Shown piece after piece: positions 1 to 29,979 of a stretch of DNA of 64,000 bases. Made by a program: the position numbers and the translations under genes. Position 1 is the first letter of the stretch, and the number at the start of each line of letters is the position of its first letter. The stretch comes from Azolla caroliniana (taxonomy: Eukaryota; Plantae; Polypodiophyta): contig JBHGNT010000001.1 of NCBI GenBank assembly GCA_043228905.1, forward strand, positions 20,770,001 to 20,834,000. Reading direction: 5' to 3'. The notes under the pieces were generated by a model. That model made no database searches and had not been told where the DNA came from. It worked only from the letters and a program-made list of their open reading frames with translations.

Positions 1-1738
1 CTAAAACCTACAACAGGGATGCACGGCACACGGAGGTGCTAGAAAAAGAGTACAAGTGCGAAGGCGGGTTGCCGGTCTAGGTGATCTCGCATAGAAGGTC
101 GGAGAGGGATCCTCCACACTAGTTCCGAAGACCTTGGCAGTTTGGCCGCCGTGACAACGTAAGACCAAGGAGAAGGTAGGTGGCGGCGAGGGGACGATGG
201 CGGTGGAGATCGGCTCGGAACGAGAACCGGGACAAGGCGAAGGTCGATGGAGGCCTAGCGGGTCATCACAGGTGCTCCTCGGACAGAGGACACCGCGTAC
301 CCGAAGGGACGAGAAGCGTGCATGCGGTCGAAAGAAGGGCCTACGGGAAGCACGCACACTACCGGATCGCGGCGAATGACCTATCGACGGGTCGAACAAG
401 CCTACGGGTAGGCAAACTTGGAGAAGGAACCAGAGCCGACGGTTTGGACCGGCGAGGCTAACGTGCAGCCAGAATGAGGATTACGGAAGTTCGGTTCCTC
501 ACCGGTCGGAATCTTTCACCCTTCTCCGAACTTGGCACGTACCGGTGGACGTGCGGTTTGGTGGGGGTAGATGTCATGAAGATTCCGGGCCATGGTGAGA
601 AACCTGGGAAAATCGGAAGAATCGGTGGAATGCATCGCGTGCACTCACCCTTGTTAAAATGTGTGAATAAGAGGGGGGCCTTAATGGCGCCGAGTAGGAG
701 TTAATTTGGGACAGAAAATCCCTTGTAAGTCGGGATTTATCCCAAATAGTCACGCGACCCTCACCTTGTTCTATAAAAGGGAGTGCGCGCCCCTTGTAAA
801 AGGGTTCCTCATTTTTGAGGTTCTGTAGGTTCCATTTTTGGTGTTAATAACTTATGAGCATAATGTCTTTCTGTCTTCTTTTCATCTTGGTGTGAGTGTT
901 GTCTCTATTCTCTGTTAGGGTTTCATCTTGGTGTGTGTGTTGTCTCTATTCTCTGTTAGGGTTTTGGTGTCATCTGTGTGGGTGCGTAGGTGGCATATTT
1001 AGTTGTGCTGGGAAACGTGCGGACTGTCTGCACCTTCCCTGAGTTCCTGATTGTTGGTTCTCAGTACTCCACCGTCCGGTACGTCTATGTGTGGGTGTTG
1101 GCTTCCACTGCTTGTGAAGAGCCCACGCACTAGGTGGTTTGTTGGCAGGTTTCCCTCCTTGGCGGGCAGGACCCAACTCAGTTCAGCGAGCCCGTGCGCC
1201 CCCCTGAAGGCGGCTTTGTGTCAGGAGGTGGTCGTTCTGGAAGAGGCATGCCCTACACGAGGGTCCCATTGCACGAACGAGCCTGGGAGCTCCCCGAACG
1301 GCCCTAGGATGTAGGCTCCCTGTTCCTCTTCGTGTGGAACTCGCGTCACAACGAGCATCGCGTGTGTATGTGTGGGTGTGTCTCCGGATAACGTAGGGTC
1401 CGAGAGCGGGTGTGTGCGTGGTTGCCGGTGTAGAGGTTTCGGTTGTAACTAGGTGTGTATATGTGCATGTGTGTGTGCGTGGGCGGGGTTAACCCGACCG
1501 TGTCCCCTGCCTCTTTTTGCCCCCTGTACATACGAGCGAAATCGGGTGGCATGGACGAGGGCGCGCTCTCTCACTTCCCATGGGATTACCGGTTGCGACC
1601 GGAGAGTATCTGGGATCGAACCGGCTGGCAACGCGGCAAGCTCCGAAGGATTCAGGTTCTCGGCAACTCCTCCCCTCCTGGTCCATGACCCCGGTGCTCC
1701 AGCCCATATCCAACATGCAAGCGCGGATTATTGCGACA
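1..1738 (+). mobile_element. 3' end of a Ty3/gypsy element (Trp-primed family): 3' internal region, PPT ~556-571, 3' LTR 572-1738
   Basis: 531-571 (TTGGCACGTACCGGTGGACGTGCGGTTTGGTGGGGGTAGA) matches the pre-LTR/PPT sequence of the elements at 4686-4725 (-) and 29482-29522 (+). It is followed by TGTC at 572 and ends ...TTGCGACA at 1738, where copia gag resumes. Length 1167 bp is similar to sister LTRs; TATA-like CTATAAAAG at 771. Confidence 0.75.
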
Positions 1739-2664: not shown

Positions 2665-3575
2665 GCCGTGGAGGAACGTCGTCTTCACGTCTAACTGCTC
2701 TACCTCGAGGTCCATGCTTGCAACTATGCTCAACACCGTCCGGATGGAAGTCATCTTTACTACTGGGGAAAATATCTCGAAGTCCACGCCCTTCTTCTGT
2801 TGGAACCCCTTCACCACGATCCTGGCTTTGTATCTCGGGGGGTTGCCGGCATCTCCCGATTTCAACTTGTACACCCACTTGTTTCGGAGTGCCCTCTTTC
2901 CTTTCAGAAACTACACCAATTCATACGTGTGGTTCTCATGCAAGGAATCCATCTCGTCCTGCATGGCACTCAACCACTTGCGGCTATGGGTGTCATCCTT
3001 CGCTTCTTCGAAGCTTTCCGGCTCCCCCTCATCGGTCAGCAACACATGCTCTTCATCCGGAAATCTCCGGGGGGCTCTTCTTTCCCGGAGAGGATATCTC
3101 CGTCCTCGGTTTTCGGTAACCAGCTCCTATGTCTGTTCTTCATCCGAATCTGATGCCAGGTCGTTTGGTTCCAGTTTCAGCTTCCTCTTCTTCTTCTGCC
3201 GGTTTGGTATCCTCACCGTAACCGGCCAGTTCTTCGATTGTCAACCGGCTCTTAGCCGGGTAGGTCCGAATCTCATTGATCCGATCCTTACCGGTCGACT
3301 CAGAGTTCATTATCTTCTTCTCTGACTCCTAGTCGGCAAGGGTCTTATCCTCCATGAAGATAATATCTCGACTCTAGAACACCTTCTTGTCGATGGGGTC
3401 CCACACTTGGTCATCTATGAACGTCACGTGACTTCGTGTCCACTTGACACACATCGGTATGCACCAGCTCCAGTGGTATATTCTGTCTCATCGGTGGCCT
3501 TGATCGGAAGCAGATCCAGTTTTGCTTACCGGCCAGGTAGTCGGTGCACCTCTCAAGATGCACGTCATTCACCGG

Positions 3576-4685
3576 TGTCGTGAAGATCCGTCACTACGCG
3601 CGGATCGTGAGGCGGAACCGCCGGGGTTCTGGACCGGAAGGGTTCAAAGTTGGTACAAGCTTTGGCGCAAGCTTTAGCGAGAAAGTACTTAGATAGATTG
3701 GGAAAGAGAGAAGTTGAGATTACACGATTGAGAGAGATTGATTGAACTTTTAACTTTAGATTTAAGAAACAAGTTACACGATCAATTTGATAACGAATTT
3801 CTTCTTCTTAATTTCATAAAAAAAACCGCGTTTTTCTCCTCCCCCTTCCTTCTTTTATAGATGCTCTCATGCATATGATGCATGTGAGGGTACAAGACAT
3901 GCATAAATTGCATGCTTGCCATTTGGCGCTTATGTATTACATGTGGTGCATGATAACCATGTCACTCATTTTAGCTCTCATGTATGAGAATTTACACATA
4001 AAAGTACAAGTACAATGATAGAAATATAAATTCAACTAAATGGCATTGCTTAATGGTAAGCCAATTGAATCCTAACTCGGAGGTGCAAGGTTCGAATCCT
4101 TACTTGCCCTCCTTGTATATGTATATATATTTATATATTTATTTATCTAGTCATCGGACGCCGGTTCGCCGGATGCCGTCGGTTACCGGTGCCTCGCTGG
4201 ATGCCGTCACCTCGTCGCCGTCGGATGCTAGTGTCTCACTGGCGCCGGATGCCGTCACCTCACCGGCGTTGGATGCTGTCGGTTACCGTTCACCGGTCCG
4301 GTTTTGGTTGGCCAAAACCATTTACGAGTAGCTAGCCCACCTCCACTCTTAGTTCAAGTTACCTTGAACTCTCTATGCTCCACACATAGACACAAAGATA
4401 ATATCTTTTGCTCTACCTTATATATGATGAGAGCCGTATTTGTCGTGCCTATGTGGGATATCTCACAATTTTCTCTTTTCTTTTCACAAACTTTATACCC
4501 TCATATCTTGACATTTAGTTGTCCGTTTCTCGTGTAATAAAGTGCATTCGAAACCTCCATCATTTTGTACTTAGATATTAAATTTATTTAAAATGTTATC
4601 TTCACAATTATTGTATTATGTGATTCATACTCGATTTTGTACGTTTTATGGGATTTTTACACTATTGTCGAAAATCTTCACAACA
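3576..4685 (-). repeat. 3' LTR of the gypsy element 3576-9773
   Basis: Direct repeat of 8638-9773, TG...CA termini, PPT adjacent. Confidence 0.95.
4042..4108 (+). ncRNA. tRNA-derived Pol III promoter-like sequence inside LTR (not a functional tRNA)
   Basis: A-box-like TTGCTTAATGG (4046-4056), perfect B box GGTTCGAATCC (4089-4099) in AAGG/CCTT T-stem, GGCA/TGCC ends; tRNA-like spacing. Confidence 0.7.
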
Positions 4686-4757
4686 TCCACCCCCATCAAA
4701 CCGCACGTCCTCCGGTACGTGCCAAGAAGAGAGAAAGTGAGATTTCGGCTACGGTGA

Positions 4758-6419
4758 TCAATTAGATTCCTCCATGTCTTCATTTACATCTGCCCTATTA
4801 TGTTCATCGTCGAGGTAATCGAGGTCAGGATCCTTGTCTTGTGTTTTCTTGAAAATCTTTACTCTTTTTCCCGCAATGGGTACGGCCAACCTTGATTCGT
4901 CTAGTTCTGCAAGGTGGTATGTGGCATTATCATTGGCACTTGTCACCACATACGGCCCGAACCATCTTCTTTTGAACTTCCTTGTTGTACTGTGTTGATT
5001 GTCAAGGGTGCTGTCATAAACCAAAACCCAATCCCCTTCTTCAATCTTCTTGGGACGAAGTCGATGCGTGTTGTCGAACCGAACTTTGTTCTTTACTCGG
5101 GCTGCCTCCATCATCTTTCGTGCTTTTTCTAAATCTTCAGGTCTTCTTTCAAGTTGCCTTATCCGCGCCGCTAATAACTCTTCGTGGCTCATCACGTTCT
5201 CCCACGGTATCGCTACCCATGAGGCGATCGTCCTTTCGATGGGCATAATCGGCTTTTGTCCATACATAAGCTCCGTCGGCATATACCCTGTCACCGAGCT
5301 ATGTGTCGTTCTATCAGCCCACAAGGCATAGGGTAATAGTCGTGGACAATTCCCGACTTGACCGTTGCATGCCCGTACGATGGCTTTAACGATAGGTCCA
5401 TGCCCTCGCTCGATCTTCCCATTCGCTTCTGGATTGTGGGCAGTCGTGAGGGAGAGCTTCACACCTAGTCTTTCGAAGAGCTCCGTCGCTTCATGCGCGT
5501 CCAACTCCCCTCGGTTGGCCACTATCTTCCCTACACATCCATATCGGCAAACAACCTCTTCAAGCAGAAATTTGCAAACGGCTAAAGTCGTCTTATTTGT
5601 CAAGGCTCGTCCTTCCACTTGATTTGTCAAGTCTTCCCTTGCCAGCATTAAGTACTTCATTTGTCCTACTCCCATTGGCATCGAGACCAGATCCACCATC
5701 CATTTGAAGTGTATGGTGAGTGGGTATGTCGGCTGTAACTCATCATGATGACGTATATTGGAATATATTTGGTTAGTTTCGCATGTGGACACGAAATGGA
5801 GTACATCTTTGTACATGCTTGGCCACCAATACTTCTCCTTCAACTTTTCGAACGTTGCCCATGTTCCTCTATGACCTGCCCAAGCACTCTCGTGGAATTC
5901 GGTCATCAACGTCTCTTGCTCTTCTTTCTTTACCACCACTCGACGTGGTATTCCTGTCCTTCTTTTTGGATGTCGCCAAAGGAATCCTCCCTTCAACAAG
6001 TATCGGTAAGCTTTCTTTCGGATTCGTAGGGCCTCCTCCTTTGTCAACGAAGCATTTGTCGTCAATGTTCTTAGGAATCTACTAATGAGTAACCACTCTC
6101 CTTCGTACTCGTTCTCGTTGAAGGCGTGGAGGGTTTGCGTGTCCTGGTCTTCTGCCGACAATCGAGCCATCTTGAAGAAGTCAAGGGCGACATCTTCATC
6201 TTCTGAAACCATGTTACTTCCATTTGAAAATCTTGCCCTCGATAGCATGTCAGCCATGGTGTTCTTCTTCCCTGCAATGTGACGGATCTCTGGGTTTAAA
6301 GACTTGATGTAGGCGATCCACCTTAGCATAGCAAGATCTGGGGTCGCACATCCCGAGACCATTCCGAGAATTGGGAGACAATCTGTTTCTATTATCACTT
6401 CTGACCCGATTCCTTTCAT
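4758..6419 (-). CDS. RNase H C-terminal remnant plus intact Ty3/gypsy integrase (553 aa ORF created by the deletion)
   Basis: FHESAWAGHRG..C zinc-finger region, WMVDLV, HNPEANGKIERGHG catalytic core, RRWFGPYVV GPY/F motif; uninterrupted ORF. Confidence 0.85.
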   Translation of the reverse strand: MKGIGSEVIIETDCLPILGMVSGCATPDLAMLRWIAYIKSLNPEIRHIAGKKNTMADMLSRARFSNGSNMVSEDEDVALDFFKMARLSAEDQDTQTLHAFNENEYEGEWLLISRFLRTLTTNASLTKEEALRIRKKAYRYLLKGGFLWRHPKRRTGIPRRVVVKKEEQETLMTEFHESAWAGHRGTWATFEKLKEKYWWPSMYKDVLHFVSTCETNQIYSNIRHHDELQPTYPLTIHFKWMVDLVSMPMGVGQMKYLMLAREDLTNQVEGRALTNKTTLAVCKFLLEEVVCRYGCVGKIVANRGELDAHEATELFERLGVKLSLTTAHNPEANGKIERGHGPIVKAIVRACNGQVGNCPRLLPYALWADRTTHSSVTGYMPTELMYGQKPIMPIERTIASWVAIPWENVMSHEELLAARIRQLERRPEDLEKARKMMEAARVKNKVRFDNTHRLRPKKIEEGDWVLVYDSTLDNQHSTTRKFKRRWFGPYVVTSANDNATYHLAELDESRLAVPIAGKRVKIFKKTQDKDPDLDYLDDEHNRADVNEDMEESN

Positions 6420-8576
6420 GATTGGCTCGCACCGTTAGGAATTGGACCGATCTTTGGTTGTCAAGAATCTTTATTCGTGTGAAGGCTGCTCCATTATCGA
6501 ACACTTTGGTCTCCATCCGAGATGATGTGATATAAGGTTGCCCTAGTATGACAGGATGCGACGCCGATTCTTGTACGAAGAAGTGTTGATCCATCTCCAC
6601 ATCCCTGATTGTGACTTTGATATTGGGACAAGCTCCGTACAAGTCCTCCGTAGACTTTGTTGCCGCGCGAATCTTCCATCCGTGGTTTGTATTGATTGGC
6701 CATCTTCCTTTTTTGTAGAAGTCGGTTGACATGAGGTTGATCTCCGAGCCATGGTCGATCAAGGCTACCACGGTCTCTTTCTTCTCCCCGATCTTCACTG
6801 GCGTCTCCGTTGTCGCTTGTGCCCAATGAGGTCGAGTATAGTGGCTGTCCACCATATTTCATCGACTTCGTCTCTTGCCATCGTTATGGCATTCGTTTTT
6901 GCTTTTTGCGGCTTCTCTTCTTCCTCGTCCGATTGTTGTCTCTTTCTCTTTACAAGGTCCATGATCGTGTCATGGAACTCCTTCTTCGTAATGCCAAGCA
7001 ATTCCCTCAAGGACAAAGTTACGTGGCTATCAAGAACTCGTTCTTCGAGAATCTTCTTTAGGTCCATCGTCTGCTCTATGTCCGACCTTAGCTTATAGGT
7101 AGGTATAGTCCTTGTCCTCCGAGCGGGGTCTTCGACACCAACCTTCATGGGCCGAACCATTTCTTCAACTCGTATGCTCGGCTCCCCTTTTCGGCTTGAT
7201 TCTCGTTCCTCCATTTGTAAAGGCCGACTCGTCTCCGCATCGTCCTTCTTTTTCGCATTCCTTGTTTCATGTCTTTTTAATGGGCCTTGCTCTTCTATTC
7301 TCTTTCTCTTTTCTTCGACGAACACCTCGTGGTTGTCGCACATCACCTCTGCGAGTATGGTGTTGTTGTCCAACGGATCCGACCACCCGGTTATGCTTTG
7401 CACACTTCGGTCCGCAAGCTCTACCTCGTTCGATGTGACTTTTCCGTTCTTCTCATATTCAAGAACGGAAGTCCAAAACTTTGCTCCCGCTCTAGCAGCT
7501 TCAGTCTTGTCTTTCCCGACTCTTATTCCGGCCGACGCAACATAGTGCATCGCATCCACATGAGTTGCATCGACATCCTCCATAGATTTCTTCATTCCTC
7601 CTCTTCCGAAATTCACCCGTAGGGGTCTTCTAGTCTTGCTTGAGCAGATCATGTTGTCCTCTATGTATACGATATTTTGTCGAATCGCCTCTCGAAGGCT
7701 CGCACAATCCCTTCTCATGTGGTCCATGCTATCGCACCACACGCATCTAAAAGGTTCTTTTCCTTTAGGGCCCCGACGATTCATGTTGGCTAGCGTGACC
7801 TTCTCAAACTTCTTCGCTAGCTCTTCAATGATGTCTTCATCAATCTTCTTTTCTTCCACGTTACTTTGTCTTGGTGGCTCAGCTACTTTCGGTGGTCTTG
7901 CTTTCTCCGTGGTAGTCGGTCCCGTCAAGTCGGTGTCATCAACCCATTGGCGACGCTTGTCGAGCCTATTGCATGCCCGCTTCATCGCGATCCAGTCCGC
8001 TACGAGCCCATTTGCTTGGGTATCATCTTCGAGAAGAGTCCCCAACTCCCATCTATCCTTTATGTCCACCGCCTTCAAGGAGTACAAAGTCTTGTCCTCA
8101 TCAAGCAACACTTGGTCCGTATTGGGGAGACGACTAAACATCTGGTCGAATTCGTCGTACACCCTCAAGACGCTCGTCTTCTTATTCTTCTTCTCTATCC
8201 ACTTCATCAGGGCATGTCAAGTCATCCTCTTTGAGTCTTCTGTCACGAACTCTGCTTGTATCATTTTCTCGAACTCGGACCGTGTTGTCTTACCTTCTTG
8301 AAGCTCGATGACTTGTCTTTGGATGTTGTTGGCGACAACTCTCTTGAGGCTTACGATTTGACGTGCCTCGAACACGTCCCTTTGATTCATCTCCCTTCTA
8401 TATGCATCAAGGAACTTCATAACATTCCTTCCATCGAATTGGCCCTCGAGCTCTACGACACGATCGACAGCCTTCTCCACGCTCGCGTCGTTGTCCTGAG
8501 ATCTCATCATTTGCTCGACGATTAGCATCATCCTTTCGAGCTCTCCCGCTTGGTTGCTTGAGGACGCCTTCTCCAA
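6410..8576 (-). pseudogene. gag-protease ORF of the gypsy element (one stop near 8217, one frameshift near 6855)
   Basis: FDGRNVMKFL gag N-terminus, CVWCDSMDHMRRDC knuckle, ALIDHGSEINLM aspartic protease, ILGQPY. Confidence 0.85.
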
Positions 8577-8611
8577 GTATTAATCTTGACTTGATCCTTC
8601 CTACCGCCTCT

Positions 8612-8629
8612 TTCACGTCAGGTTCACCA
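8612..8629 (-). promoter_or_regulatory. Primer-binding site complementary to tRNA-Trp 3' end
   Basis: Minus strand TGGTGAACCTGACGTGAA, 8 nt inside the 5' LTR; matches the complement of the plant tRNA-Trp 3' end (TTCACGTCGGGTTCACCA, from memory) with one mismatch. Confidence 0.8.
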
Positions 8630-8637
8630 CTTAATTA

Positions 8638-9773
8638 TGTCGTGAAGATCCGTCACTACGCGCGGATCGTGAGGCGGAATCACCGGGGTTCTGGACCGGA
8701 AGGATTCAAAGTTGGTACAAGCTTTGGCGCAAGCTTTAGCGAGAAAGTACTTAAGATAGATTGGGAAAGAGAGAAGTTGAGATTACATGATTGAGAGAGA
8801 TTGATTGAACTTTTAACTTTAGATTTAAGAAACAAGTTACACGATCAATTTGATAACGAATTTCTTCTTCTTAATTTCATAAAAAAAACCGCGTTTTTCT
8901 CCTCCCCCTTCCTTCTTTTATAGATGCTCTCATGCATATGATGCATGTGAGGGTACAAGACATGCATAAAATGCATGCTTGCCATTTGGCGCTTATGTAT
9001 TACATGTGGTGCATGATAACCATGTCACTCATTTTAGCTCTCATGTATGAGAATTTACACGTAAAAGTACAATGATAGAAATATAAATTCAACTAAATGG
9101 CATTGCTTAATGGTAGGCCAATTGACTCCTAACTCGGAGGTGCAAGGTTCGAATCCTTACTTGCCCTCCTTACTTGCCCTCCTAACTCGGACGCCGGTTC
9201 GCAGGATGCTGGATGCCGCCGGTCGTCGTCGGATGCCAGTGTCTCACTGGCGCCGTATGCCGTCGGATGCCGTCAACTCAACGGCGTCGGATGCCGTCAG
9301 TTACCGTTGCCGTCGCCGGATTGCCGTCGGATGCCGGTGTCTCACTGGCGCCTGATGCCGCCGGATCACCGGTTCCATCGCCGGTCCGGTTTTGGTTGGC
9401 CAAAACCATTTACGAGTAGCTAGCCCACCTCCACTCTTAGTTCAAGTTACCTTGAACTCTCTATGCTCCGCACATAGACACAAAGATAATATCTTTTGGT
9501 CTACCTTATATATGATGAGAGCCGTATTTGTCGTGCCTATGTGGGATATCTCACAATTTTCTCTTTTCCTTTCACAAACTTTATACCCTCATATCTTGAC
9601 ATTTAATTGTCCGTTTCTCGTGTAATAAAGTGCATTCGAAACCTCCATCATTTTGTACTTAGATATTAAATTTATTTAAAATGTTATCTTCACAATTATT
9701 GTATTATGTGATTCATACTCGATTTTGTATGTTTTATGGGATTTTTACACTATTGCCGAAAATCTTCACGACA
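8638..9773 (-). repeat. 5' LTR of the gypsy element 3576-9773
   Basis: Direct repeat of 3576-4685, PBS adjacent. Confidence 0.95.
9099..9165 (+). ncRNA. tRNA-derived Pol III promoter-like sequence inside LTR (second copy)
   Basis: TTGCTTAATGG A box, GGTTCGAATCC B box (9146-9156), anticodon-loop-like CTCCTAA (Arg-CCT-like). Confidence 0.7.
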
Positions 9774-11136
9774 CCGGAATGAGGTTTTCATCGGCAAGCC
9801 TCCTCATCCCCTTCTCGCTCATGTGACACAGTGTCTTGTGCCACAGCTCACCGGTAGTGTCGGATGCCACGTTCACATCTTTCCGGCATAACCGGGCATT
9901 CATTAGGTACAGAGTGTTGACTATTAGGCTCCCTTTGCTGAACTTCATGACTCCGTTCCAGATGCTACCCGTGTAGCCTTCATTGTCTAGCCGACCGGCT
10001 AATATTAGGTTGAGTCGAACCTCCGGAACGTGTCGAACATCCTTCAGGAGCAGCTTGCATCCGGTTGGTGTTGTCAACCACACGTCTCTTATGCCGACAA
10101 TTCGGCATGTACCTTTATTTCCCATCCAGACACAGCCGTGATCACCAACTATGTAGGATGAGAAGCATTTCCGGTCTAGGGTAAGGTGGAATGACGCTCC
10201 GGAATTGACAACCCACGTTGTCTCATTGCCGGCAAGGTTCAACTCACTCTCCTCGGTGATAAGCATCAACTCTTCTTCACTTGCCGCGATTGTCGTTGTT
10301 CCCTTCCGGTCCGGTCCCCTCCGGTCTTTACCGTTTCGGTTCGGTGACCGCTTCAAATCGGTACTATCGGTTTCCTTGTCTTTTCCGAAGTGCCGACAGT
10401 TCTTTTGGAAGTGTCCCGGTTTGCCGCAATAGAAGCAAGTAGGGCTCCCCCTTGACTTTGACCGTGTCCCCGACTTTTTCCGGTTTTGGGGACTACGATT
10501 CCTTTGTCTTCCGCGTTCCAATTTGGTAAGGAGCGCTTTGGAGTCGGAGCTCGCGCCTCCTCATCTAGCAAGCTCGACTTGACTCTTGCTAGGGATAATT
10601 GTTTTCCTTCCGGCCCGACATTGCCCAAAGTGACAACCAACGTCTCCCAGCTATCTGGGAGGGAACCGAGCAGGAGTTAGTACCTCATCGACAAGAGGTA
10701 CTTCCAACGATGTTGCTTGGTGAATCAGCCCGTGGACGGCATTCATGTGCTCTGCCATGCTGGAGCCATCTTGGTATCGGAGTCTTACTAGCTTCCGGAA
10801 TACCGAAACCCGATTAACAACAATTTTCTTCTGAAACATAATGTCGATCTTCTCCCAAAGCTCATGAACCTTGCTCTCCTCATTAAAGTTGTTGTACAGG
10901 CTCATGTCGATGAAACATCGGATGTATGCTGTTGTCTTCATGTGCATTACCTCCCATACCGTGGCGTCGATCTTATCCGGTCTCTTGTCCTTGAAATGAA
11001 CCGGCAACCAAAGATCTTTAACCACGAGCATGTCCCTCATCTTCGACTTCCACACTGAGTAGTTGGAGCCGGTGAGCTTGAACATGCCTCCCAACGAATC
11101 TTCCATTTTCTGTATCGTTTTGCTCTGATACCAGAT

Positions 11137-11796: not shown

Positions 11797-12389
11797 TGAT
11801 ATTCCACAAAGGGTGTGGAGCGGAAAGACGTATCGTACCGACATTTGAGGGTGTTTGGTTGTCTTGTCTATGTGCATGTGGCAAAGGACCAGAGGGGGAA
11901 GTTGGACCCAAAATCTCGGCCATGCATATTTCTCGGCTACGACGATGACGAATTCGGTAATCGGCAATGCAACATAGCCGATAAGAAGGTGGTTAGGAGC
12001 TGAGACATTGTCTTTATGGAGAAACGCATTTTACTACAAATGAAATGGATAAATAAGTATTAAGTTATGTGAATATGAAGTTGAGAATATAAGGAAAATA
12101 GAATTGTGAAATATCCTACATAGATAGGAAACTTTAGGATCCATCTATATAAGCATAGACGGAGCCGGCGACGAAGTTGGGAACCAAAACCGGATGACGA
12201 CGTAACCGGTAACCGGCGGCAATCGGACGGAGCCGGCAATCGGCAATCGGACAGAACCGACAACTGTATGGCGACGGAACGGAAACCAGACACGGACTAG
12301 ACGGATCGGATGGGCAACGGTCGAGATGGACGGATGATAGGATCATGTGGTGAATTAAAGTAAAATAAAGTAAAGGTCATGTGGAAGGC

Positions 12390-12545
12390 ATGCTACTAAA
12401 GGTACAGGCCATGCAACTAAAAGTAAAGGCGAAGCAACTAAAAACGGAGGCCATCCAACTAAAAGAAAAGGTGAAGCAACTAATAAAGGAGGCTATGCAA
12501 CTAAAAATAAAGGCCAAGCAACTAAAACTGGAGACCAGGAAACAA
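12390..12545. repeat. 21-bp tandem repeat (GCAACTAAAAGTAAAGGC-NNN) in gypsy 5' LTR
   Basis: About 7 imperfect copies; longer counterpart at 31087-31285. Confidence 0.85.
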
Positions 12546-12970
12546 AAAGGGGACGTGTGCAAAGGAACATGGGAGGCGATGATCAAGAAGGAACTCGATA
12601 TATGTACCACTTTTTTTTCTCTAGTTTCGTCTTTTTTTTGGGGGGGGCATTCTCTTTTGCTCCCTCCTATTCCTTGCGGAAAAAACTCTAAGCCTAATTA
12701 TCTTAGAGAAGAAAATCCTAATTTTCCTATGAAATCCATATCTCCGTTTCTTCTAATCTATTATCTATTAATCTCCGTAACCTTAAACTTTTGTAATCCC
12801 AATCTTGGGATAGATTGTAATCTTTCTTTCCCTTTGTTAATGAAATTTGTCGATCTTTCTCATTTCCATTAATTCTTTAATATAAACATATGAATTTGAT
12901 ATGCTCTGGTCAGAGGCCCCTGGGTCCTGCCTCAAGTTCACGTATCCTTGTCGTATTTTCGCAACATCTT

Positions 12971-18468: not shown

Positions 18469-21400
18469 TGTTGGGATTTCGGTCCCTTTCGGATGGGATG
18501 GTCGGATATCGGAGATGAATGCCGACAAGCCCGGTTTCGGTTTCGGATCCGGATGACGAAGACCCCGGCTTCGGTGCCGGATGACGAATGTACCCGGAGA
18601 GCGATCCGGATGCAGGGACATATCCGTGAATATGTTCGCTACGAGCCCCCTGAGGCTATAGTTGTAAATAGCCCAAAGTCATATAAGTATAAATATGACT
18701 TAGGGCAAACAGTTTTCCTGTTGCTTCTCATTTTTCTGTTTTTCCACTTTGGAGGAGTGAAGAGAGAGCAGCCGTGAGAGAGAGAAAGAGAGAGAGCGCG
18801 AGAGAGAAAGAGGTAGACGCCTCTGTGTATTTCCGCCGCCTGTGGCGAGGACAGCGAGCTCAAGGTCGTCGCCTTGGAGCTCGTCATTGTATACTTCTCT
18901 GTATAGTGTTGTTTGGAGTCTTGTACTCCCGTGGTTTTTCCCCGTTTAGGGTTTTCCACGTTAATCCTTGTGTACTCGCGTTTCTTCGTTTTGTTTCTAC
19001 GTGTGTTTCCTATTTTCTGCTCCATTGATCCGCGATTAATCGGTTGTGGCCGAGATAAGAAGGTGGATAGAAGGGTCTATTCCTTACAAACTGGTATCAG
19101 AGCGACTGTTGCAGAAAATGGAAGGCGGCGGCAGCGGGCAGCCGATGATGATGGTGCTGAATGCACAGAATTACGCCGACTGGAAGATCAAGATGGAGGA
19201 TCTTCTGATTGTTCGGGACCTGTACGAACCGATTGACAGGTCGGAAATACCGAAGGGGGTACTTGAGTCGGAGTGGAAGCTCCTGAACCGGAAAGCCGTA
19301 GCGACGATCCGACAATATGTCGACGTAAGCGTCCTGCAACATGTGGCGAACGACACCAACGCATACGAGATGTGGAAGAAGCTGTCTGGCCTCTATGAGA
19401 GGAAGAATGCGTTGAACCGGACCTCCCTGATGAGGAAGATTGTGAATCTCAAGTATCGGGACGGCGAGAGTATGGTGGAACACGTAAGCACGTTCATGGG
19501 ATTCGTGAACCAGCTTGCGGCGATCAAGTTCCCGTTGGAGGATGCAATGCAAGCCATCATCCTGATGTGTACATTGCCGGAAAGCTGGGAGAACTTGGTG
19601 GTGACTCTCAGCACCTCGTGCACCGAAGATAACTTGTCCTTACAAACTGTAAAGACAAGTATTCTGAATGAAGAAGCGCGTCGGAGAGATAAGGAACCGG
19701 CCTCCGACCCGAAGATGCTGTTTACCGAATCGGATCGGGGAAGACAATGGAACCGGAGTCCGCAAAGACGGGAGAAGTCGGGGACCCGGTCGCAGTCAAG
19801 AGGAAGGCCCACATGCTTCCACTGTGGGAAGCCGGGGCACTTCCGAAAGAATTGTCGGCATTACCGAAAAGACAACGGAGCCGACGACACCGACTCGAAG
19901 AAGTCACCGGAGAGAAACGGTGCATACCGGGGAGCCACGGACCGGAGAGGTTCGGATCGGCGAGGGCAAGACCGGAAAGGAACAACGGCACTCGCGGCAA
20001 GTGAGGAAGAAATCATGCTCATCACCGAAGAAGGTGAGCTAAACGTTGCCGGCGATGAGACGACCTGGGTGGTCGATTCCGGAGCATCGTTCCACCTGAC
20101 CCCGGAGAGAAGATACTTCTCATCCTACACAGCCGGCGAGCATGGCTGTGTTCGGATGGGAAATGAAGGTACGTGCCGGATTGCCGGCATAGGAGACGTG
20201 TGGTTGACAACCCCGACCGGATGCAAAATGCTGCTGAAAGATGTCCGACACGTTCCGGAGGTCCGATTGAACCTGATTTCGGCCGGGAGGCTAGATGATG
20301 AAGGCTACACGGGTAGCATCCGGAACGGTGTCATGAAGTTCAGCAAGGGGAGCTTGATAGTGGTTCGGGCCCGGAAGGTCAACACACTGTACCTGATGAA
20401 TGCCCGGTTATGTCCGGAAGAGCTGAATGTGGCAGCCGACACTGCCGGTGAGCTGTGGCACAAAAGACTGTGCCACATGAGTGAGAAGGGGATGAAGAGG
20501 CTTGCAGAAGACAACCTCATCCCAGTGAAGCACGTGCACCTGGAGAAGTGCACCGATTGCCTGGCCGGTAAGCAGAACCGAACCTCCTTCCACTCAAGGC
20601 CACCGACGAGACGTAGCGCACCATTGGAGTTGGTGCACACTGACGTGTGTCAGGTAGAGACGAAGTCACATGGCGGAGCCCAGTACTTCGTAACATTCAT
20701 CGATGATCATAGCCGAAAACTGTGGACGGCACCGATGAAGACAAAGGACCAAGTGTTGTCCGTCTTCAAAGAACTCCATGCGAGAGTGGAAAGAGAATCC
20801 GGCAAGAAGCTGAAAGCGATACGAGCGGATAACGGAGGGGAATACCGAGGGCAGTTCCAGGAGTACTGTCGCTCGAAGGGAATCCGACTCGAGTTTACTG
20901 TGCCGAAGACGCCGGAACTGAACGGGCTGGCCGAGAGGATGAACCGGACCATAATGGAGCGGGTCCGGAGTATGCTGGCGCATGCGAAATTACCCAAGGG
21001 GTTTTGGGCTGAGGCAATGTCGACGGCGACATACGTGATAAACAGATCACCCTCAGTACCTTTGGACGGAGACACGCCGCAGAAAGTGTGGACTGGTAAG
21101 GAAGTGTCCTACCGGCATCTGAAGGTGTTCGGGTGTCTCGCATACGTGCATGTGGCAAAGGACCGGAGAGGAAAGCTAGATCCGAAGACCCGGCCATGCA
21201 TATTCCTCGGTTACGGCGACGACGAGTTCGGCTACCGAGTATGGGACCCGGTCGACAAGAAGATATTCCGGAGTCGTGATATCATCTTCATGGAGAACAA
21301 GACGCTCGCCGACTGGGAGTCGGAGAAGAAGATGAAGAGCTCCAAGTCGACCGGTGAGGATCAACTCTACGAGGAGCAGTCCCGACCGGCAAGGGACCGG

Positions 21401-23821
21401 TTAGCACTCGAGGATCCGGCCGAAGACGGTGAAGACACAGAACCGGCCGAAGAAGATGAAAATGATACCGGAACCGGCCCCGATCCCGAAATGGTCTCGG
21501 ATGAAGAAGAATCGGAAGAACCGGTTACCGAAGCTCCGGAACGGAGATATCCTCTAAGAGAGAGAAGGGCCCCCCGGAGATTTCCGGAACCAGAGCACGT
21601 GCTGCTAACCGACGAGGGGGAGCCGGAGAGCTTTGAAGAAGCGAAGCATGACACCCAGAGCCGCAGGTGGTTGAGTGCCATGCAGGACGAGATGGATTCC
21701 CTGCATGAGAACCACACATATGAACTTGTGGAGTTGCCGAAGGGAAAGCGGGCACTTCGAAACAAGTGGGTGTTCAAGCTGAAACCGGGAGATGCCGGAA
21801 ACCCCCCGAGATACAAAGCCAGGATCGTGGTGAAGGGGTTTCAGCAAAAGAAGGGCGTCGACTTCGACGAGATATTTGCCCCGGTAGTGAAGATGACCTC
21901 CATCCGGACGGTGCTGAGCATAGCGGCAAGCATGGACCTCGAGGTAGAACAGATGGACGTGAAGACGGCATTCCTTCACGGCGACCTCGATGAAGAGATC
22001 TACATGCAGCAACCGGAAGGATTCGAGAAGGAAGGGAAGGAGCACCTGGTATGCCGGTTGAAGAAGAGCCTTTACGGACTGAAGCAGGCTCCCCGGCAAT
22101 GGTACCGGAAGTTCGACTCCTTCATGACCGACGAAGGGTACCTCAAAACGCAGTCCGACCACTGCGTGTTTGTGAAGGAGTTCGAAGGAGGAGACTCTCT
22201 AATACTCCTCCTGTACGTGGACGACATGTTGATCGTCGGACGGGACCAGGTCAAGATACGGATGCTGAAGAAGGCTCTTCACCGAACCTTCTCAATGAAG
22301 GACCTGGGTCCGGCGAGGCAAATACTAGGGATGCACATCATCCGGGACCGGAAGAAGAAGCAGTTGTGGCTGTCACAGGAGAAGTACGTGACGAAGGTGC
22401 TTCACCGGTTCAACATGTCGGAAGCAAGACCGGTCGGATCGACCCTCCCGACAAACTGCAAGCTGTCCAGCAAGCAAAGTCCCAAGACAAAGGCTGAGAA
22501 GGAGGATATGATGAAAGTGCCGTATGCCTCAGCCGTCGGGAGCTTGATGTACGCCATGGTGTGTACGAGACCGAACATCGGATATGCAGTCGGAGTGGTG
22601 AGCCGGTACATGAGCAATCCCGGCAAAGAGCATTGGAACGCGGCCAAGTGGATACTCCGATACCTGAAGGGCACGGCAAACGTGTGCCTCCGATTCGGCC
22701 CCGGTAAACCCGAACTCGACGGTTTCACCGATTCGGATATGTCGGCTGATGCAGATACCAGCCGGTCCACATCAGGGTATGTGATGACGTATGCAGGGGG
22801 AGCTGTTTCGTGGCAGTCGAGGCTGCAGAAGACGGTTGCGTTGTCAACCACGGAGGCGGAGTACATGGCAGCTGTTGAAGCCGGCAAGGAAATAATATGG
22901 ATGAAGGACTTCATTAGAGAGCTCGGTATCCGGCAAGAGGAGTACCAACTCTACTGCGACAGTCAGAGTGCCATCCACCTTGCGAAGAACGCAGCCTATC
23001 ACTCCCGGACGAAACACATCCAGCGTAGATACCACTGGATCCGGGAAAGGATAGAAGACAAGGAGTTCGTGCTGACAAAGATCCACACGGACGAGAACGG
23101 GTCGGATATGCTGACCAAGGTGCTCACACCCGACAAGCTGGAAGCATGCCGGAAGAGGATCGGATTGGAAAGACATCCCATGCCGAAGTGAAGGGGGAGT
23201 TTGTTGGGATTTCGGTCCCTTTCGGATGGGATGGTCGGATATCGGAGATGAATGCCGACAAGCCCGGTTTCGGTTTCGGATCCGGATGACGAAGACCCCG
23301 GCTTCGGTGCCGGATGACGAATGTACCCGGAGAGCGATCCGGATGCAGGGACATATCCGTGAATATGTTCGCTACGAGCCCCCTGAGGCTATAGTTGTAA
23401 ATAGCCCAAAGTCATATAAGTATAAATATGACTTAGGGCAAACAGTTTTCCTGTTGCTTCTCATTTTTCTGTTTTTCCACTTTGGAGGAGTGAAGAGAGA
23501 GCAGCCGTGAGAGAGAGAAAGAGAGAGAGCGCGAGAGAGAAAGAGGTAGACGCCTCTGTGTATTTCCGCCGCCTGTGGCGAGGACAGCGAGCTCAAGGTC
23601 GTCGCCTTGGAGCTCGTCATTGTATACTTCTCTGTATAGTGTTGTTTGGAGTCTTGTACTCCCGTGGTTTTTCCCCGTTTAGGGTTTTCCACGTTAATCC
23701 TTGTGTACTCGCGTTTCTTCGTTTTGTTTCTACGTGTGTTTCCTATTTTCTGCTCCATTGATCCGCGATTAATCGGTTGTGGCCGAGATAAGAAGGTGGA
23801 TAGAAGGGTCTATTCCTTACA
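18469..23821 (+). mobile_element. Intact young Ty1/copia element, 620-bp LTRs (18469-19088, 23202-23821), TSD TTTAC
   Basis: TTTAC at 18464-18468 and 23822-23826; PBS TGGTATCAGAGC 19092-19103; PPT 23190-23199; LTRs look identical by eye and give identical ORF-track translations. Confidence 0.98.
19118..23191 (+). CDS. Ty1/copia Gag-Pol polyprotein (1357 aa; gag, CCHC, PR, IN, RT, RNase H)
   Basis: Single uninterrupted ORF from the first ATG after the PBS; CFHCGKPGHFRKNC, WVVDSGAS, HKRLCH..CTDC, DDE core, YVDD, RNase H. Confidence 0.97.
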   Translation: MEGGGSGQPMMMVLNAQNYADWKIKMEDLLIVRDLYEPIDRSEIPKGVLESEWKLLNRKAVATIRQYVDVSVLQHVANDTNAYEMWKKLSGLYERKNALNRTSLMRKIVNLKYRDGESMVEHVSTFMGFVNQLAAIKFPLEDAMQAIILMCTLPESWENLVVTLSTSCTEDNLSLQTVKTSILNEEARRRDKEPASDPKMLFTESDRGRQWNRSPQRREKSGTRSQSRGRPTCFHCGKPGHFRKNCRHYRKDNGADDTDSKKSPERNGAYRGATDRRGSDRRGQDRKGTTALAASEEEIMLITEEGELNVAGDETTWVVDSGASFHLTPERRYFSSYTAGEHGCVRMGNEGTCRIAGIGDVWLTTPTGCKMLLKDVRHVPEVRLNLISAGRLDDEGYTGSIRNGVMKFSKGSLIVVRARKVNTLYLMNARLCPEELNVAADTAGELWHKRLCHMSEKGMKRLAEDNLIPVKHVHLEKCTDCLAGKQNRTSFHSRPPTRRSAPLELVHTDVCQVETKSHGGAQYFVTFIDDHSRKLWTAPMKTKDQVLSVFKELHARVERESGKKLKAIRADNGGEYRGQFQEYCRSKGIRLEFTVPKTPELNGLAERMNRTIMERVRSMLAHAKLPKGFWAEAMSTATYVINRSPSVPLDGDTPQKVWTGKEVSYRHLKVFGCLAYVHVAKDRRGKLDPKTRPCIFLGYGDDEFGYRVWDPVDKKIFRSRDIIFMENKTLADWESEKKMKSSKSTGEDQLYEEQSRPARDRLALEDPAEDGEDTEPAEEDENDTGTGPDPEMVSDEEESEEPVTEAPERRYPLRERRAPRRFPEPEHVLLTDEGEPESFEEAKHDTQSRRWLSAMQDEMDSLHENHTYELVELPKGKRALRNKWVFKLKPGDAGNPPRYKARIVVKGFQQKKGVDFDEIFAPVVKMTSIRTVLSIAASMDLEVEQMDVKTAFLHGDLDEEIYMQQPEGFEKEGKEHLVCRLKKSLYGLKQAPRQWYRKFDSFMTDEGYLKTQSDHCVFVKEFEGGDSLILLLYVDDMLIVGRDQVKIRMLKKALHRTFSMKDLGPARQILGMHIIRDRKKKQLWLSQEKYVTKVLHRFNMSEARPVGSTLPTNCKLSSKQSPKTKAEKEDMMKVPYASAVGSLMYAMVCTRPNIGYAVGVVSRYMSNPGKEHWNAAKWILRYLKGTANVCLRFGPGKPELDGFTDSDMSADADTSRSTSGYVMTYAGGAVSWQSRLQKTVALSTTEAEYMAAVEAGKEIIWMKDFIRELGIRQEEYQLYCDSQSAIHLAKNAAYHSRTKHIQRRYHWIRERIEDKEFVLTKIHTDENGSDMLTKVLTPDKLEACRKRIGLERHPMPK

Positions 23822-24106
23822 TTTACGAATATGTCTTTTCCTCTGGTTCACACCGGGCCTGCACCATCCGGCTCTCCGTAGCCGGGTACTCCTCATCCGG
23901 TTCACACCGGGCCTGTCCGTAGTTGGGTACTCCTCATCCGGTTCACACCGGGCCTGCACCATCCGGCTCTCCGTAGCCGGGTACTCCTCATCCGGTTCAC
24001 ACTGGGTCTGTATCATCCGGCTCTCCGTAGCTAGGTACTCCTCATACGGTCTTCGACACTGATCTTCTCCCTTCCCATCCGGAGGGACCTGTCTCCCAAC
24101 ACTAGT

Positions 24107-27100
24107 TTCAAGCAGGTGGTGGAACCAGGAATCCATGAGCATGTCATAGAGATCCAAAACGAGCACGCAACTTGGGCGAAGTTCGAGAAGGTGCTTCTTG
24201 CTGAAAACATGCTTGAAGATGCATCACAGATGACTCAACATACGTTAATGATTTGGATCGAGAAGAAAGGAAAGAATTTGTGTGCATTGGGAGTATATGC
24301 GGAATTCGACTAGATGTACAACCGACTTCCAAGTTCTCGATGGAGATAAAGTCATGTTATCCCTGAAGGCGGTGGATACAAAAGACTGGCGAGAATTGGG
24401 TGGTTTTTTGGAGGACGAAACGCAACCAAATGGCTTGGTAGCGGACTAGGCGGAGGTGCAGAAGGCTTGTAGCCGTCTTGATAAGCGTCGACAATGGCAA
24501 GAGGAAACTGATATGGAGAATCTACAAACATGGAGGAGGAAGGCACCGGTGACGGTCAAGCCTAACAAGCCGATCAACAATTTCGGCAAGAAAGCGATGG
24601 AGGACTCTATAATCGAAGAGCTCTCCAAGAAATTTGAAGTGGTATCGCTGGCCAACTTAGGTCGATGCGGGCCCAAGGGAAAATAAGCATATAGATGTGT
24701 GTGGTGCGACAGCTTTGAGCACTCACGAAGGGAATGCGTGGACTTGCAAGACGCGATTCACAAGAATGTCGTCTATTTGGATGGAAACATGATCCACTCA
24801 AGTGAGACTAGGAAGCCACTACAAGTGAACTTCAGAAGAGGCGGGCTGAAAAAGATTGTAGAAGAGGAAAATGCAAGGCATGTGGAACCTGTGCACTATG
24901 CCACATCGACCGGGATACGAGTTGGAAAAGAAAATCTAAAGACGATCAAGCCAGAAGCTGGGTTTTCGCCGACGATCTTTGAGTGTGAGAAAAAAGGCAA
25001 AATCGATTCGGAGGATTTAAAACTTGTTGATCGGAATGTGCGATGAGTTACCGGATGGTCAGATCCAGTCGATGATAACACAAGCTTTGCGGAGGTAGAG
25101 TGCGACAACTATGAAGCTCTTGTCGAAGAGAAGAGGAAACGAACCGGTGAAGAAGATGGCACATCAAAGTGTCCCAACACGAGGAACTCAGGGAAAGAAG
25201 GGCAAGTCCAACCTACGCCACGAAAAGAGGTTGGAGAAACAAGCATGAAGCCCGGTGGATCGAGCCAACCTGCTCGGATGGAAGTCGAAGAATCAACGAA
25301 GAAAGGAAAAGAACGAGTGGCGTTGACTTACAAGCTAAGGTCGGATATAAAACAAACAACTGATTTGCAAAAGGTCCTTGAGGAGAAAGTTTTAGACAGT
25401 CATGTCGACCTTACTTTGAGAGAACTACTTGGGATTGCGAAGAAGGAGTTCCATGATACTATCGTGGACCTTATTAAGCAGAATCGGCAACAATCTGATG
25501 AAGAGGAGGTGAAAACAAGTGCCATAACCATGGCAATATCGGAAGAGGAAGAAGAAGAAGTGGTGGCGGATAGCCATTACTCTCGAGTTCATTGGGCAAG
25601 AGCGACAATGGAGACGCTGGTGAAGATCGGGGAGAAGAAAGAGACCGTAGTAGCCTTGATTGACCATGGCTCAGAGATCAACCTCATGTCGACCGAGTTC
25701 TACAAGAAAGGAAGATGGTCGATTAATAAAAACCATGGATGGAAGATTCGAGCGGCGACAAAGTCTATGGAGGACTTGTACGGAGCTTACCCCAACATTA
25801 AAGTCACGATCGGGGATGTGGAGATTGATCAACACTTCTTCGTGCAAGACTCGGCTTCGCATCCTATCATCCTAGGACAACCGTATATAACATCGTCTCG
25901 GATGGAGACCAAGGTGTTCGATAAAGGAGCAGACTTCGCGTGCGTCAAGAGTCTTGATAGTAAAAGATTTGTTCAATTCCTAACGGTGCGAGCTAATCAC
26001 GAAAGGAACTGAGATAGCCTTGGAGGGGAATCCTCGGATTTTTAAAGCGGACTATTGAAGCATGGGGCACAAATAGTCCGAGCAATCATAAGTCCCCACA
26101 AGGAAGCAGAGTGCGTGGATTGCAAGGAGAAGCAACATGCGTCACACCTAGCGGCGCATGCAAACTAAGACTACTCAACAAGAAGGAAAAGTGTCGGATA
26201 CAAGACTTCGAGAAGGTGCTACAAGACGAAAGCATAATCGAAGAAGAAGAATTTGTGTCTCATATTCTGGAGGAAGCCTCATTTAATGACACCATCGACG
26301 AAATCGAGGAAGTCGTGGACTTGAGCTATCCTCACCATCAACATGTGATTTCGGTTAACTCCGTCAACATGTACACTATCATCGATGAATATCATCGAAG
26401 CATCTTGATGAAGGAAACCGAAGTCAACACAAAATATAAAACCGTGGATAGGAAGATCAAGCCAGTTGCAGTACCACTACCGGAAGATAGCTGGCAAAAG
26501 ATGAAGGAAGTTGCAAAAGATCCAAGCTTAAGGAATCCAAATACAATTGGTCACATCTTCACTAAAGAGACGAAGGGAAAGCTACGAGTTGGAAGGGAGG
26601 ATTTGCTCCTTCCTGAAGAGGAGTGAATGTTCAGCAGAATGCTTGAAAGACATGGGAAGGCTTTCGTACTTTTCCCACATGAAATCGGATGTGCTAATCC
26701 AAGGACGGTAGAACCGATGGTGATCTTCACGGTGCCGCATGTGCCTTGGAATTTGAAACCGATATTGGTTCTGAGAGCACACCTACCAAAGCTGATCGAG
26801 CTCTTAAAGGAGAAGGTGAATATGGGAATTTTGGAACCGCCGAACACTCCTTATTCTAATAGGTGGTTCACGGTGCCGAAGAAGAATGGATCGTTGTGAT
26901 TCATCCAAGATCTCCAACCCGTCAACAAGGTGACAATCCGAAATGCCGGAATTGGTCCAAGCATGGATGAATTTGTCGAAGCCTTCGTAGGAAGATCGAT
27001 CTATTCCATTGGTGATCTCTACTCGGGCTATGACCAGTTTCAGTTGGTTGTCGATAGTAGAGACATAACGACAATGCGGACACCGATCGGGTTGGTGCAG

Positions 27101-29458: not shown

Positions 29459-29979
29459 TCAAAAGTGGAGCCTCACCAAAATTGGCACATACCAGTGGAT
29501 GTGCAGGTTTGGTGGGGGTGAATGTCGTGTGATTCTTCACACACTATGTAAAAAATAATAAAATAATAATTTTAGATTAGATTAATGGCTTGATATGGGA
29601 AGATAGATGTCTTCAAGAGCTTAATAACGCATTTTACTACACATGAAACGGATAAATACGTATTAAATTATGTGAATATGAAGTTGAGAGTATAAGGAAA
29701 ATAGAATTGTGAAATATCCCACATAGATAGGAAACTTTAGGATCCATCTATATAAGCAGATTGAGAACTATTAGTTTTCATCTATGTGTTGAGAGCACAA
29801 AAGGAATGGTTAGACTTGGACCAATTTGTCTACATGGACAAATGTAGCTAAGGAAACCAGAAACTAGAAACCGGATGGAGCTGGTGATTGGATAGAACCG
29901 GCAATCAGAAACCGGATGGAGCTGGCAACTAGAAACCGGAAACCGGACGGAGTTGGCAACAAAGTTGGGAACTGGAACC

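What the first reader, a model, noticed from the sequence alone, without database searches (positions are those of the whole stretch)
4042..4295. tRNA-like Pol III cassette built into both LTRs of a protein-coding gypsy element, antisense to the element
Seen: A box, perfect B box GGTTCGAATCC, T-arm and Arg(CCT)-like loop at 4042-4108 and 9099-9165. Presence in both LTRs means it was copied by retrotransposition. The first TTTT downstream is at 4292-4295 and 9390-9393, predicting a ~250-290 nt RNA whose body is the GC-rich GGATGCCG repeat block. Sister LTRs (29523, 39777) lack it. Known parallels: Cassandra TRIMs carry 5S sequence in LTRs, and I recall tRNA-like LTRs in non-autonomous Helenus elements. 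Inference: an antisense Pol III RNA or a TFIIIC-bound insulator protecting the LTR promoter inside heterochromatin.
Basis: partly seen in the sequence, partly recalled or inferred. Interest (0 to 1): 0.8.

Follow-up and report, generated by a model that had tools for sequence, protein, structure and literature searches.

The report
Backwards tRNA relic in retrotransposon LTRs
A very abundant family of plant jumping genes, likely from a moss, carries in its end-repeats a worn, backward-facing piece of a tRNA gene whose B-box part changes least between copies, so it likely serves as a docking site for the host factor TFIIIC next to the element's own promoter, though no binding or RNA has been shown.

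Summary
The head is real: A box 4046-4056 and B box 4089-4099, repeated at 9103-9156, antisense, in both LTRs of a Phygy-like Ty3/gypsy element. Three corrections: this copy lacks reverse transcriptase, the left TTTT is at 4302, and it is no tRNA-Arg (no cloverleaf; the loop varies CCT/CTT). It is not one copy's accident. It lies in LTR context in 5 of 7 metagenome hits and is covered like the flanking LTR in seven public runs. The 34-nt B-box segment is the least variable stretch (1 of 34 places against 20 of 71 beside it), and similarity returns there in diverged subfamilies. The predicted 250-290-nt RNA is not conserved: one subfamily copy has TTTT inside the head. Against function: a C56>T B-box variant is common, sister families lack the head, and the upstream flank is nearly as conserved. 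Best reading (0.4): a captured tRNA/SINE head kept as a TFIIIC site; passenger 0.3. It differs from Helenus in orientation and coding capacity. The scan noted LTR-borne tRNA relics in other genomes.

The parts
3576..9773 (-). Phygy-like Ty3/gypsy LTR retrotransposon, 6.2 kb, RT-less copy, inserted in a Ty1/copia element; 4-bp TSD CCGG (3572-3575, 9774-9777)
8638..9773 (-). 5' LTR
   Evidence: 15 substitutions in about 915 columns against the 3' LTR outside the repeat block (which listed a 16th at 4686, outside the LTR)
3576..4685 (-). 3' LTR
4046..4112 (+). tRNA-derived head in the 3' LTR, antisense to the element; begins at the A box, 5' acceptor strand not recognisable
4046..4056 (+). A box; this copy has a private T at 4047, other copies G
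4079..4112 (+). B-box segment (B box 4089-4099), least variable stretch; also folds as a 10-bp hairpin on either strand
4113..4150 (+). TA/TTTA-rich tail behind the head; reads AATAAA on the element's sense strand in 4 of 5 head-bearing LTRs examined
4151..4305 (+). GC-rich CCGG repeat block and first TTTT (4302-4305); block unstable between copies and present in headless sister LTRs
4417..4424 (-). TATA-like motif of the 3' LTR (predicted Pol II promoter), in the only block that blastn finds shared with sister LTRs
9103..9169 (+). tRNA-derived head in the 5' LTR (A box 9103-9113, B box 9146-9156)
9170..9191 (+). Tail replaced by short copies of nearby head sequence (templated-insertion scar, inferred to postdate insertion)
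9505..9512 (-). TATA-like motif of the 5' LTR, about 350 bp upstream (element sense) of the antisense B box
8613..8629 (-). Primer-binding site, 8 nt from the 5' LTR; tRNA-Trp type by recall; not complementary to the head's 3' end
   Evidence: tRNA-Trp is the dominant Phygy PBS
4686..4702 (-). Polypurine tract
6253..8637 (-). gag (DUF4100 hit, below cut-off) and protease region, with stops and a frame change
4758..6434 (-). End of RNase H plus integrase; joined to the protease end near 6410, where about 1.8 kb present in the sister element is missing

Best explanation
This is a tRNA-derived A/B-box head carried backwards inside the LTR of a high-copy Phygy-like Ty3/gypsy family, likely captured once as a tRNA or SINE retrocopy and likely kept as a DNA binding site for TFIIIC that would help hold the LTR's own Pol II promoter open. 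Shown: position, orientation, presence through the family, loss of the cloverleaf, low variation of the B-box segment, absence from sister families. Inferred: one insertion of a head with an AT-rich tail into the part of the LTR downstream of the TATA motif (predicted R/U5), copying to both LTRs of all descendants by reverse transcription, then free drift of the acceptor and anticodon arms. Untested: TFIIIC binds the B box about 290-380 bp downstream of the TATA motif and acts as a nucleosome-positioning or boundary site, as ETC sites and B boxes do in yeasts; any Pol III RNA would be a by-product that differs between subfamilies. It cannot be the promoter of the genomic RNA, because it faces the other way.
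For: Family-wide: 5 of 7 metagenome hits lie at the same LTR position; contigs cover the head like the flanks in X1, X4, X5, X6 and X1, X17, X19, X20. Places varying at about 10% or more in any run: B-box segment 1 of 34, AT spacer 14 of 49, anticodon arm 6 of 22 (Fisher p 0.002 against those two, p 0.02 against all other places). The two A-box polymorphisms fall on degenerate positions. 7 of 8 listed joints are contigs that match the upstream flank, break off, and match again at 4058-4088. L007 keeps the 43-nt A-to-B spacing while its arm is 45% identical to L003 and its flank 75%. RNA product not conserved: no cloverleaf, TTTT 22 nt into the head of L007. Precedent for TFIIIC without Pol III at B boxes: PMC3395662, PMC7474672.
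Against: C56>T in the B box core (4093) is 27%, 15% and 57% of depth in X1, X17, X19, and the mirror G>A is not among the 40 rows shown, which suggests inherited variants rather than decay after insertion. Both LTRs of this copy carry the altered A box, so its parent moved with it. The B-box segment is not significantly less variable than the CATG-rich flank (1 of 34 against 11 of 97, p 0.18), the two 11-nt boxes taken as such are no better than the rest (3 of 22 against 31 of 191, p 1.0), and the segment's borders were drawn after seeing the data. The B box of the metagenome copies was fixed by my search pattern. In L007 the A box is 7 of 11 identical to L003, no better than the flank. Sister families multiply without the head, and contigs of organism C share the flank with no matching head in a median 143 loose letters. 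Conservation reaches beyond the B box into a hairpin stem that TFIIIC does not need. I saw no paper that shows TFIIIC boundaries in plants.
Confidence: 0.4

Rival explanations
1. Fixed passenger. A tRNA pseudogene or short SINE landed in one ancestral LTR, that lineage amplified for other reasons, and the head drifts; at most its tail was put to use as a poly(A)-type AATAAA signal on the element's strand.
For: Common C56>T variant and private A-box change; boxes as a whole no more conserved than flanks; headless sister families are abundant; SINE-like AT tail, and a CCA end in L007; PMC10886601 notes that 'not a few' Repbase LTRs hold tRNA-like pieces.
Against: The 34-nt B-box segment is much less variable than its two neighbours and reappears after diverged stretches in three organisms; spacing is kept in L007; no free copy of the head was found in the window, and X1 shows no excess depth over the head.
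Confidence: 0.3
2. RNA-level element. The conserved 34 nt act as a hairpin in the 5' leader of the element's own genomic RNA (dimer or packaging signal; its loop holds the self-complementary hexamer of the T loop), or as a tRNA-annealing patch like the tRNA-like sequence of HIV-1 U3-R.
For: Hairpin z-scores -2.8 to -4.1 on both strands in three copies; 97% of cells paired in 7 copies; the variable places (4093, 4100-4102) lie in the loop and the stems are nearly invariant; C56>T spares the stem; the head lies downstream of the TATA motif, so it would be transcribed antisense in the leader.
Against: No change on both sides of any pair, covariation score 0, and one stem arm was fixed by the search pattern; weaker in L007 (z -2.1 and -1.6); the head does not match the PBS; the HIV-1 paper was seen only as a title in a reference list.
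Confidence: 0.17
3. Functional antisense Pol III RNA: a 250-310-nt transcript through the GC block that feeds small RNAs or dampens the element, as foamy-virus LTRs make Pol III pri-miRNAs.
For: Canonical A and B boxes at tRNA spacing in most copies; a TTTT 256-310 nt downstream in 4 of 6 copies checked (L008 ends first); the predicted RNA folds better than shuffles (z -2.8); precedent PMC3993851.
Against: Body and length differ between all copies, even between the two LTRs of this element; L007 has TTTT inside the head; the GC block also stands in headless sisters; the fold's centroid is loose and repeats inflate the score.
Confidence: 0.13

Closest known systems
Helenus / TRIMp3 (Kojima 2024, PMC10886601; read main text parts 1-4 of 6, figure legends by passage, one supplement passage)
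   Same: tRNA-derived A/B-box sequence in both LTRs, boxes better kept than the tRNA fold, isotype unstable, not the primer; origin proposed there as a SINE insertion into an LTR.
   Different: Helenus are non-coding TRIMs of 311-1263 bp; in the supplement passage seen (Helenus-1_SMo and ToGe families) the tRNA part runs in the element's sense, fit to drive its RNA. Here the LTR is 1.1 kb with a TATA motif, the element carries gag-PR-IN, RT-bearing relatives are indicated, and the head is antisense.
Phygy clade of Ty3/gypsy (Neumann et al. 2019, PMC6317226; passages and supplement row read)
   Same: 4-bp NCGN TSD, tRNA-Trp-type PBS (by recall), polyprotein filling the internal region, about 8 kb with the missing part counted; closest named proteins from Riccia and Ceratopteris.
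   Different: No tRNA-like LTR segment is mentioned in the passages seen; sister families in this window lack it; clade membership by tree was not tested.
Simian foamy virus LTR Pol III miRNA cassettes (Kincaid et al. 2014, PMC3993851; passages read)
   Same: A- and B-box promoters inside the LTR of an autonomous LTR retroelement.
   Different: There transcription, box dependence and miRNA products were shown; here none is shown, the sequence is plainly tRNA-derived and antisense, and no conserved pre-miRNA body exists.
ETC sites and B-box boundaries of yeasts (PMC3395662 abstract and passages; PMC7474672 abstract and opening); mouse B2 SINE boundaries (PMC8136502, abstract only)
   Same: Conserved B box without a conserved RNA; proposed working principle.
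   Different: Host loci or free SINEs, not a fixed part of an LTR; occupancy was measured. The fission-yeast boundaries also favour heterochromatin, so the effect could be silencing rather than protection.
tRNA-Lys3-like sequence in HIV-1 U3-R (Piekna-Przybylska et al. 2010; title seen in a reference list only, content recalled)
   Same: tRNA-gene-like relic embedded in an LTR.
   Different: There it resembles the primer tRNA; here the head shows no match to the element's PBS.

Membership tests
Helenus/TRIMp3 | tRNA-derived sequence with A and B boxes in both LTRs | tested here: met
Helenus/TRIMp3 | Short (up to about 1.3 kb) and non-coding | tested here: not met
   6.2 kb with gag, protease and integrase regions
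Helenus/TRIMp3 | Pol III promoter in the element's sense, able to make the genomic RNA | tested here: not met
   antisense to PBS-gag-PPT; sense in the Helenus sequences seen
Phygy clade | 4-bp TSD of type NCGN | tested here: met
   CCGG on both sides; L003 flanks CCAT/CCGT, L008 left flank CCGT; definition
Phygy clade | PBS for tRNA-Trp | tested here: inconclusive
   PBS seen in the window and L004; isotype rests on recall, no plant tRNA set at hand
Phygy clade | Polyprotein fills the internal region, element 7.7-10 kb | tested here: inconclusive
   fills it, but this copy is 6.2 kb after a gap of about 1.8 kb
Phygy clade | RT/RH/INT tree placement | not tested
   no reference set of Phygy domains at hand; RT absent from this copy
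Functional tRNA gene | Cloverleaf with paired acceptor, anticodon and T stems | tested here: not met
   45% of cells paired, acceptor 6%; ARAGORN and Rfam negative
tRNA-derived SINE (free family) | Dispersed copies outside the LTR with their own TSDs | tested here: inconclusive
   none in 64 kb; 0 of 7 metagenome hits are a whole head outside an LTR; no excess depth in X1; no TSD seen by eye; whole genome not held
tRNA-derived SINE (free family) | tRNA head followed by an AT-rich tail | tested here: met
   left LTR, L003, L004, L007, L008
ETC / TFIIIC boundary site | B box conserved over its surroundings | tested here: inconclusive
   p 0.002 against neighbours, p 0.18 against the CATG flank; C56>T common
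ETC / TFIIIC boundary site | TFIIIC bound, Pol III absent, boundary activity | not testable with these tools
   needs ChIP and reporters
Foamy-virus-type LTR Pol III miRNA cassette | Pol III transcript with conserved hairpin and terminator | tested here: inconclusive
   body and terminator distance not conserved; transcription not testable with contigs

The most novel reading that the evidence does not exclude
A protein-coding plant LTR retrotransposon lineage has domesticated a tRNA promoter as a portable TFIIIC boundary: every new copy brings its own Pol III factor site beside its Pol II promoter, which lets a CpG-targeting element stay active inside methylated repeat DNA and spreads TFIIIC sites through the host genome in large numbers.
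Probability: 0.25. Interest if true: 0.78.

Novelty: new variant of a known kind. Interest (0 to 1): 0.45.

Why it matters
Small-RNA promoters in LTRs are described for miniature non-coding elements, where they are thought to drive the element's RNA. An antisense one fixed in a large coding family cannot do that, so if it is under selection it must do something else. It would give a direct test of whether TFIIIC boundaries work in plants and whether a transposon can carry its own protection from silencing: head-bearing and headless sister families, and intact and C56>T variants, sit in the same genome as natural controls. If it is a passenger it still is a dated marker of one subfamily and a likely source of many false tRNA/Pol III peaks.

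Tried and rejected
tRNA gene: rejected; the one ARAGORN call at lowered thresholds was a chance fold in the GC block of the 5' LTR. Arg(CCT) label: rejected as unstable; the best phage hit was tRNA-Arg(TCT), most others tRNA-Lys, so the isotype stays open. Helenus-like promoter of the genomic RNA: rejected by orientation. Self-priming: no useful pairing of head and PBS. Upstream plant-type TATA/CAA signals for Pol III (recalled motifs): TATAAA at 4025-4030 is too near the A box and the CAA at 4033 varies; not claimed, and the literature search for it was not completed. Expression: no RNA holder listed; one contig from a run guessed to be RNA covers the stretch but shows neither strand nor level; no evidence either way. 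Viral contigs: 3 scans, nothing. Genome contigs: 4 loci, only L009 reaches about 960 nt into an LTR, without a head match. B-box-like motifs at 1621, 54622 and 54920 did not match the head profile. L002 and L006 share only the search pattern. Summed contig depth was not used as copy number. Whether the RT-less form is a subfamily or only this copy could not be decided.

Full report
The element. The finding lies in the 3' LTR of a 6.2-kb LTR retrotransposon on the minus strand (LTRs 3576-4685 and 8638-9773, TSD CCGG, PBS 8613-8629, PPT 4686-4702), nested in a copia element. Outside the repeat block the LTRs differ at 15 of about 915 columns. The internal 3952 bp hold gag and protease, then pass near 6410 straight into the end of RNase H and the integrase; the sister element at about 24000-31711 has about 1.8 kb with RT motifs at this place. 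So this copy is non-autonomous. Loose ends at 6410 in 17, 29 and 7 contigs of runs X4, X5, X6 carry on with letters like the sister's continuation after the protease, which indicates longer relatives, likely RT-bearing, in the same organisms; no contig links such an RT to a head-bearing LTR. The closest named integrases are from Riccia and Ceratopteris, unnamed metagenome proteins reach 78%. A 4-bp NCGN TSD and a tRNA-Trp PBS define Phygy in Neumann et al. 2019 (PMC6317226; passages and supplement row); the Trp label of this PBS is my recall. The host is likely a moss or another non-seed plant (inference); no whole genome is held.

The observation. The two B boxes (4089, 9146) are the only strict ones in the window, against 0.14-0.19 expected. 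An A box lies 43 nt upstream, and 58 nt align at 78% with a phage tRNA gene, so tRNA descent is likely. It is not a tRNA: ARAGORN and Rfam are negative, and across 7 copies the cloverleaf is 45% paired, the acceptor 6%. The first TTTT is 4302, not 4292. LTRs of sister families (29523, 39777, the truncated one at 12023-12965, and the one from about 570) give no hit with a profile of the head, nor does the partial LTR in L009.

Family-wide presence. A 21-nt pattern found 7 metagenome stretches; 5 are LTRs of this clade with the head at the same place, 2 are unrelated and alike. These contigs may come from one campaign, L004 and L008 are near twins, and their B box is fixed by the pattern. Independent of the pattern, thousands of contigs per run lie on the stretch in organisms A and B and a leaf metagenome, with the head covered like its flanks, and in organisms C and D. 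The tool's depth is no copy number; I use only proportions. The window's A box has a private T at 4047 in both LTRs; 227,217 of 227,590 depth in X1 reads G, as do L003, L004, L005, L007, L008. The loop reads CCT in about 90% of X1 depth but CTT in 54% (X17) and 61% (X19) and in L003/4/5/8, and is gone in L007.

What is conserved. From the 40 rows shown of 56 (I infer that the 16 hidden rows are below about 10%, and I left out the private change at 4047): CATG-rich flank 11 of 97 places variable, AT spacer 14 of 49, A box 2 of 11 (both at degenerate positions), anticodon arm 6 of 22, B-box segment 4079-4112 1 of 34. The segment is less variable than its neighbours (p 0.002) and than all other places (p 0.02), but not than the CATG flank (p 0.18); the two 11-nt boxes as such do not stand out (p 1.0), and the segment's borders were chosen after the fact. 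In X17 depth falls to 370-1090 over 4002-4049 and returns to 6200-7600 over 4082-4105; the window's private changes cause part of such dips in every run. 7 of 8 listed joints leave the flank and rejoin at 4058-4088; each is one contig, with 24-36 letters on the shorter side, and may be a replacement or a deletion. L007 shows the pattern in letters: flank 75%, A box 7 of 11, arm 45% identical to L003, spacing unchanged, a CCA end and a TTTA tail. Against constraint: C56>T at 4093 is 27%, 15% and 57% of depth in X1, X17, X19, without a matching G>A row, and 8 contigs of X17 leave the flank at 3996 with a median 143 loose letters, which points to relatives without a recognisable head.

The proposed RNA. 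The distance from A box to first TTTT is 256, 287, 310 and 264 nt in four copies and 22 nt in L007 (one low-coverage contig); L008 ends before one. The GC block differs even between the two LTRs, GGATGCCG is absent from the stretches checked in L003 and L007, and headless sisters have CCGG-rich blocks at the same place. The left RNA folds better than shuffles (z -2.8) but loosely. A conserved 250-290-nt product is therefore unlikely. Expression could not be tested.

Where it sits. A TATATAAG motif lies about 260 nt into the LTR, in the one block shared with sister LTRs. The antisense B box is 286-380 nt downstream of it in five LTRs, so the head is predicted to be in R/U5 and to be read backwards in the element's leader. 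The tail gives AATAAA on that strand in 4 of these 5; the window's 5' LTR lost it to a templated-insertion scar. The B-box segment also folds as a 10-bp hairpin on both strands (z -2.8 to -4.1 in three copies, weaker in L007), 97% paired but with no compensatory change. This keeps an RNA-level role open.

Reading. Capture once, spread by retrotransposition and loss of tRNA structure are well supported. Whether the remainder is selected, and for what, is open: TFIIIC site 0.4, passenger 0.3, leader hairpin or tRNA-annealing patch 0.17, functional antisense RNA 0.13. TFIIIC binds B boxes without Pol III and acts at boundaries in yeasts (PMC3395662, PMC7474672); the second paper shows such boundaries can also favour silencing.

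What is known. Kojima 2024 (PMC10886601) describes tRNA-bearing LTRs in non-coding TRIMs, states that 'not a few' Repbase LTRs hold tRNA-like pieces, and analysed only the short ones; the Helenus sequences I saw are in sense. Foamy-virus LTRs carry working A/B-box cassettes (PMC3993851). Five searches, judged mostly from listings plus passages of PMC2774510 and PMC13570524, showed no report of an antisense tRNA head in the LTR of a coding plant Ty3/gypsy family; Repbase and subscription journals were not searchable, and most of the Helenus supplement was not read. The scan's notes had no look-alike sequence but list LTR-borne tRNA relics in other genomes; these are unchecked. Verdict: real, family-wide, a new variant of a known kind, function unproven.

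Noticed in passing
window 9170-9191: The 5' LTR's tail is replaced by two short copies of nearby head sequence joined at microhomologies, the look of a templated-insertion repair scar; the 3' LTR and relatives keep the AT tail.
   Followed up: partly
window 531-568, 4687-4724, 29483-29529; L009:2318-2365: A stretch of about 38 nt just upstream of the 3' LTR, longer than the PPT, is 84-95% alike among otherwise distant Phygy-like families.
   Followed up: no
window 18469-23821: Ty1/copia element with a 1383-aa open frame and two LTRs identical over 620 bp: a very young insertion.
   Followed up: no
L009, L010, L011: Plant-type gypsy retrotransposon contigs stand in two prokaryote genome assemblies (a cyanobacterial MAG and a Streptomyces draft): likely contamination.
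   Followed up: no
L008:1-612 and L007:342-900: Head-bearing LTRs are inserted in the RT-RNase H region of another Phygy-like element (L008, at a CCGT site) and beside a gag-like region of another retroelement (L007): nesting in repeats, as in the window.
   Followed up: partly
window 3850-4005: The CATG-rich LTR segment next to the head is itself well conserved across subfamilies (11 of 97 places variable in 3900-3996; 75% to L007) and may hold a functional signal.
   Followed up: partly
window 54560-54640 (+) and about 54920 (-): Two weak B-box-like motifs in AT-rich DNA; no match to the head profile.
   Followed up: partly
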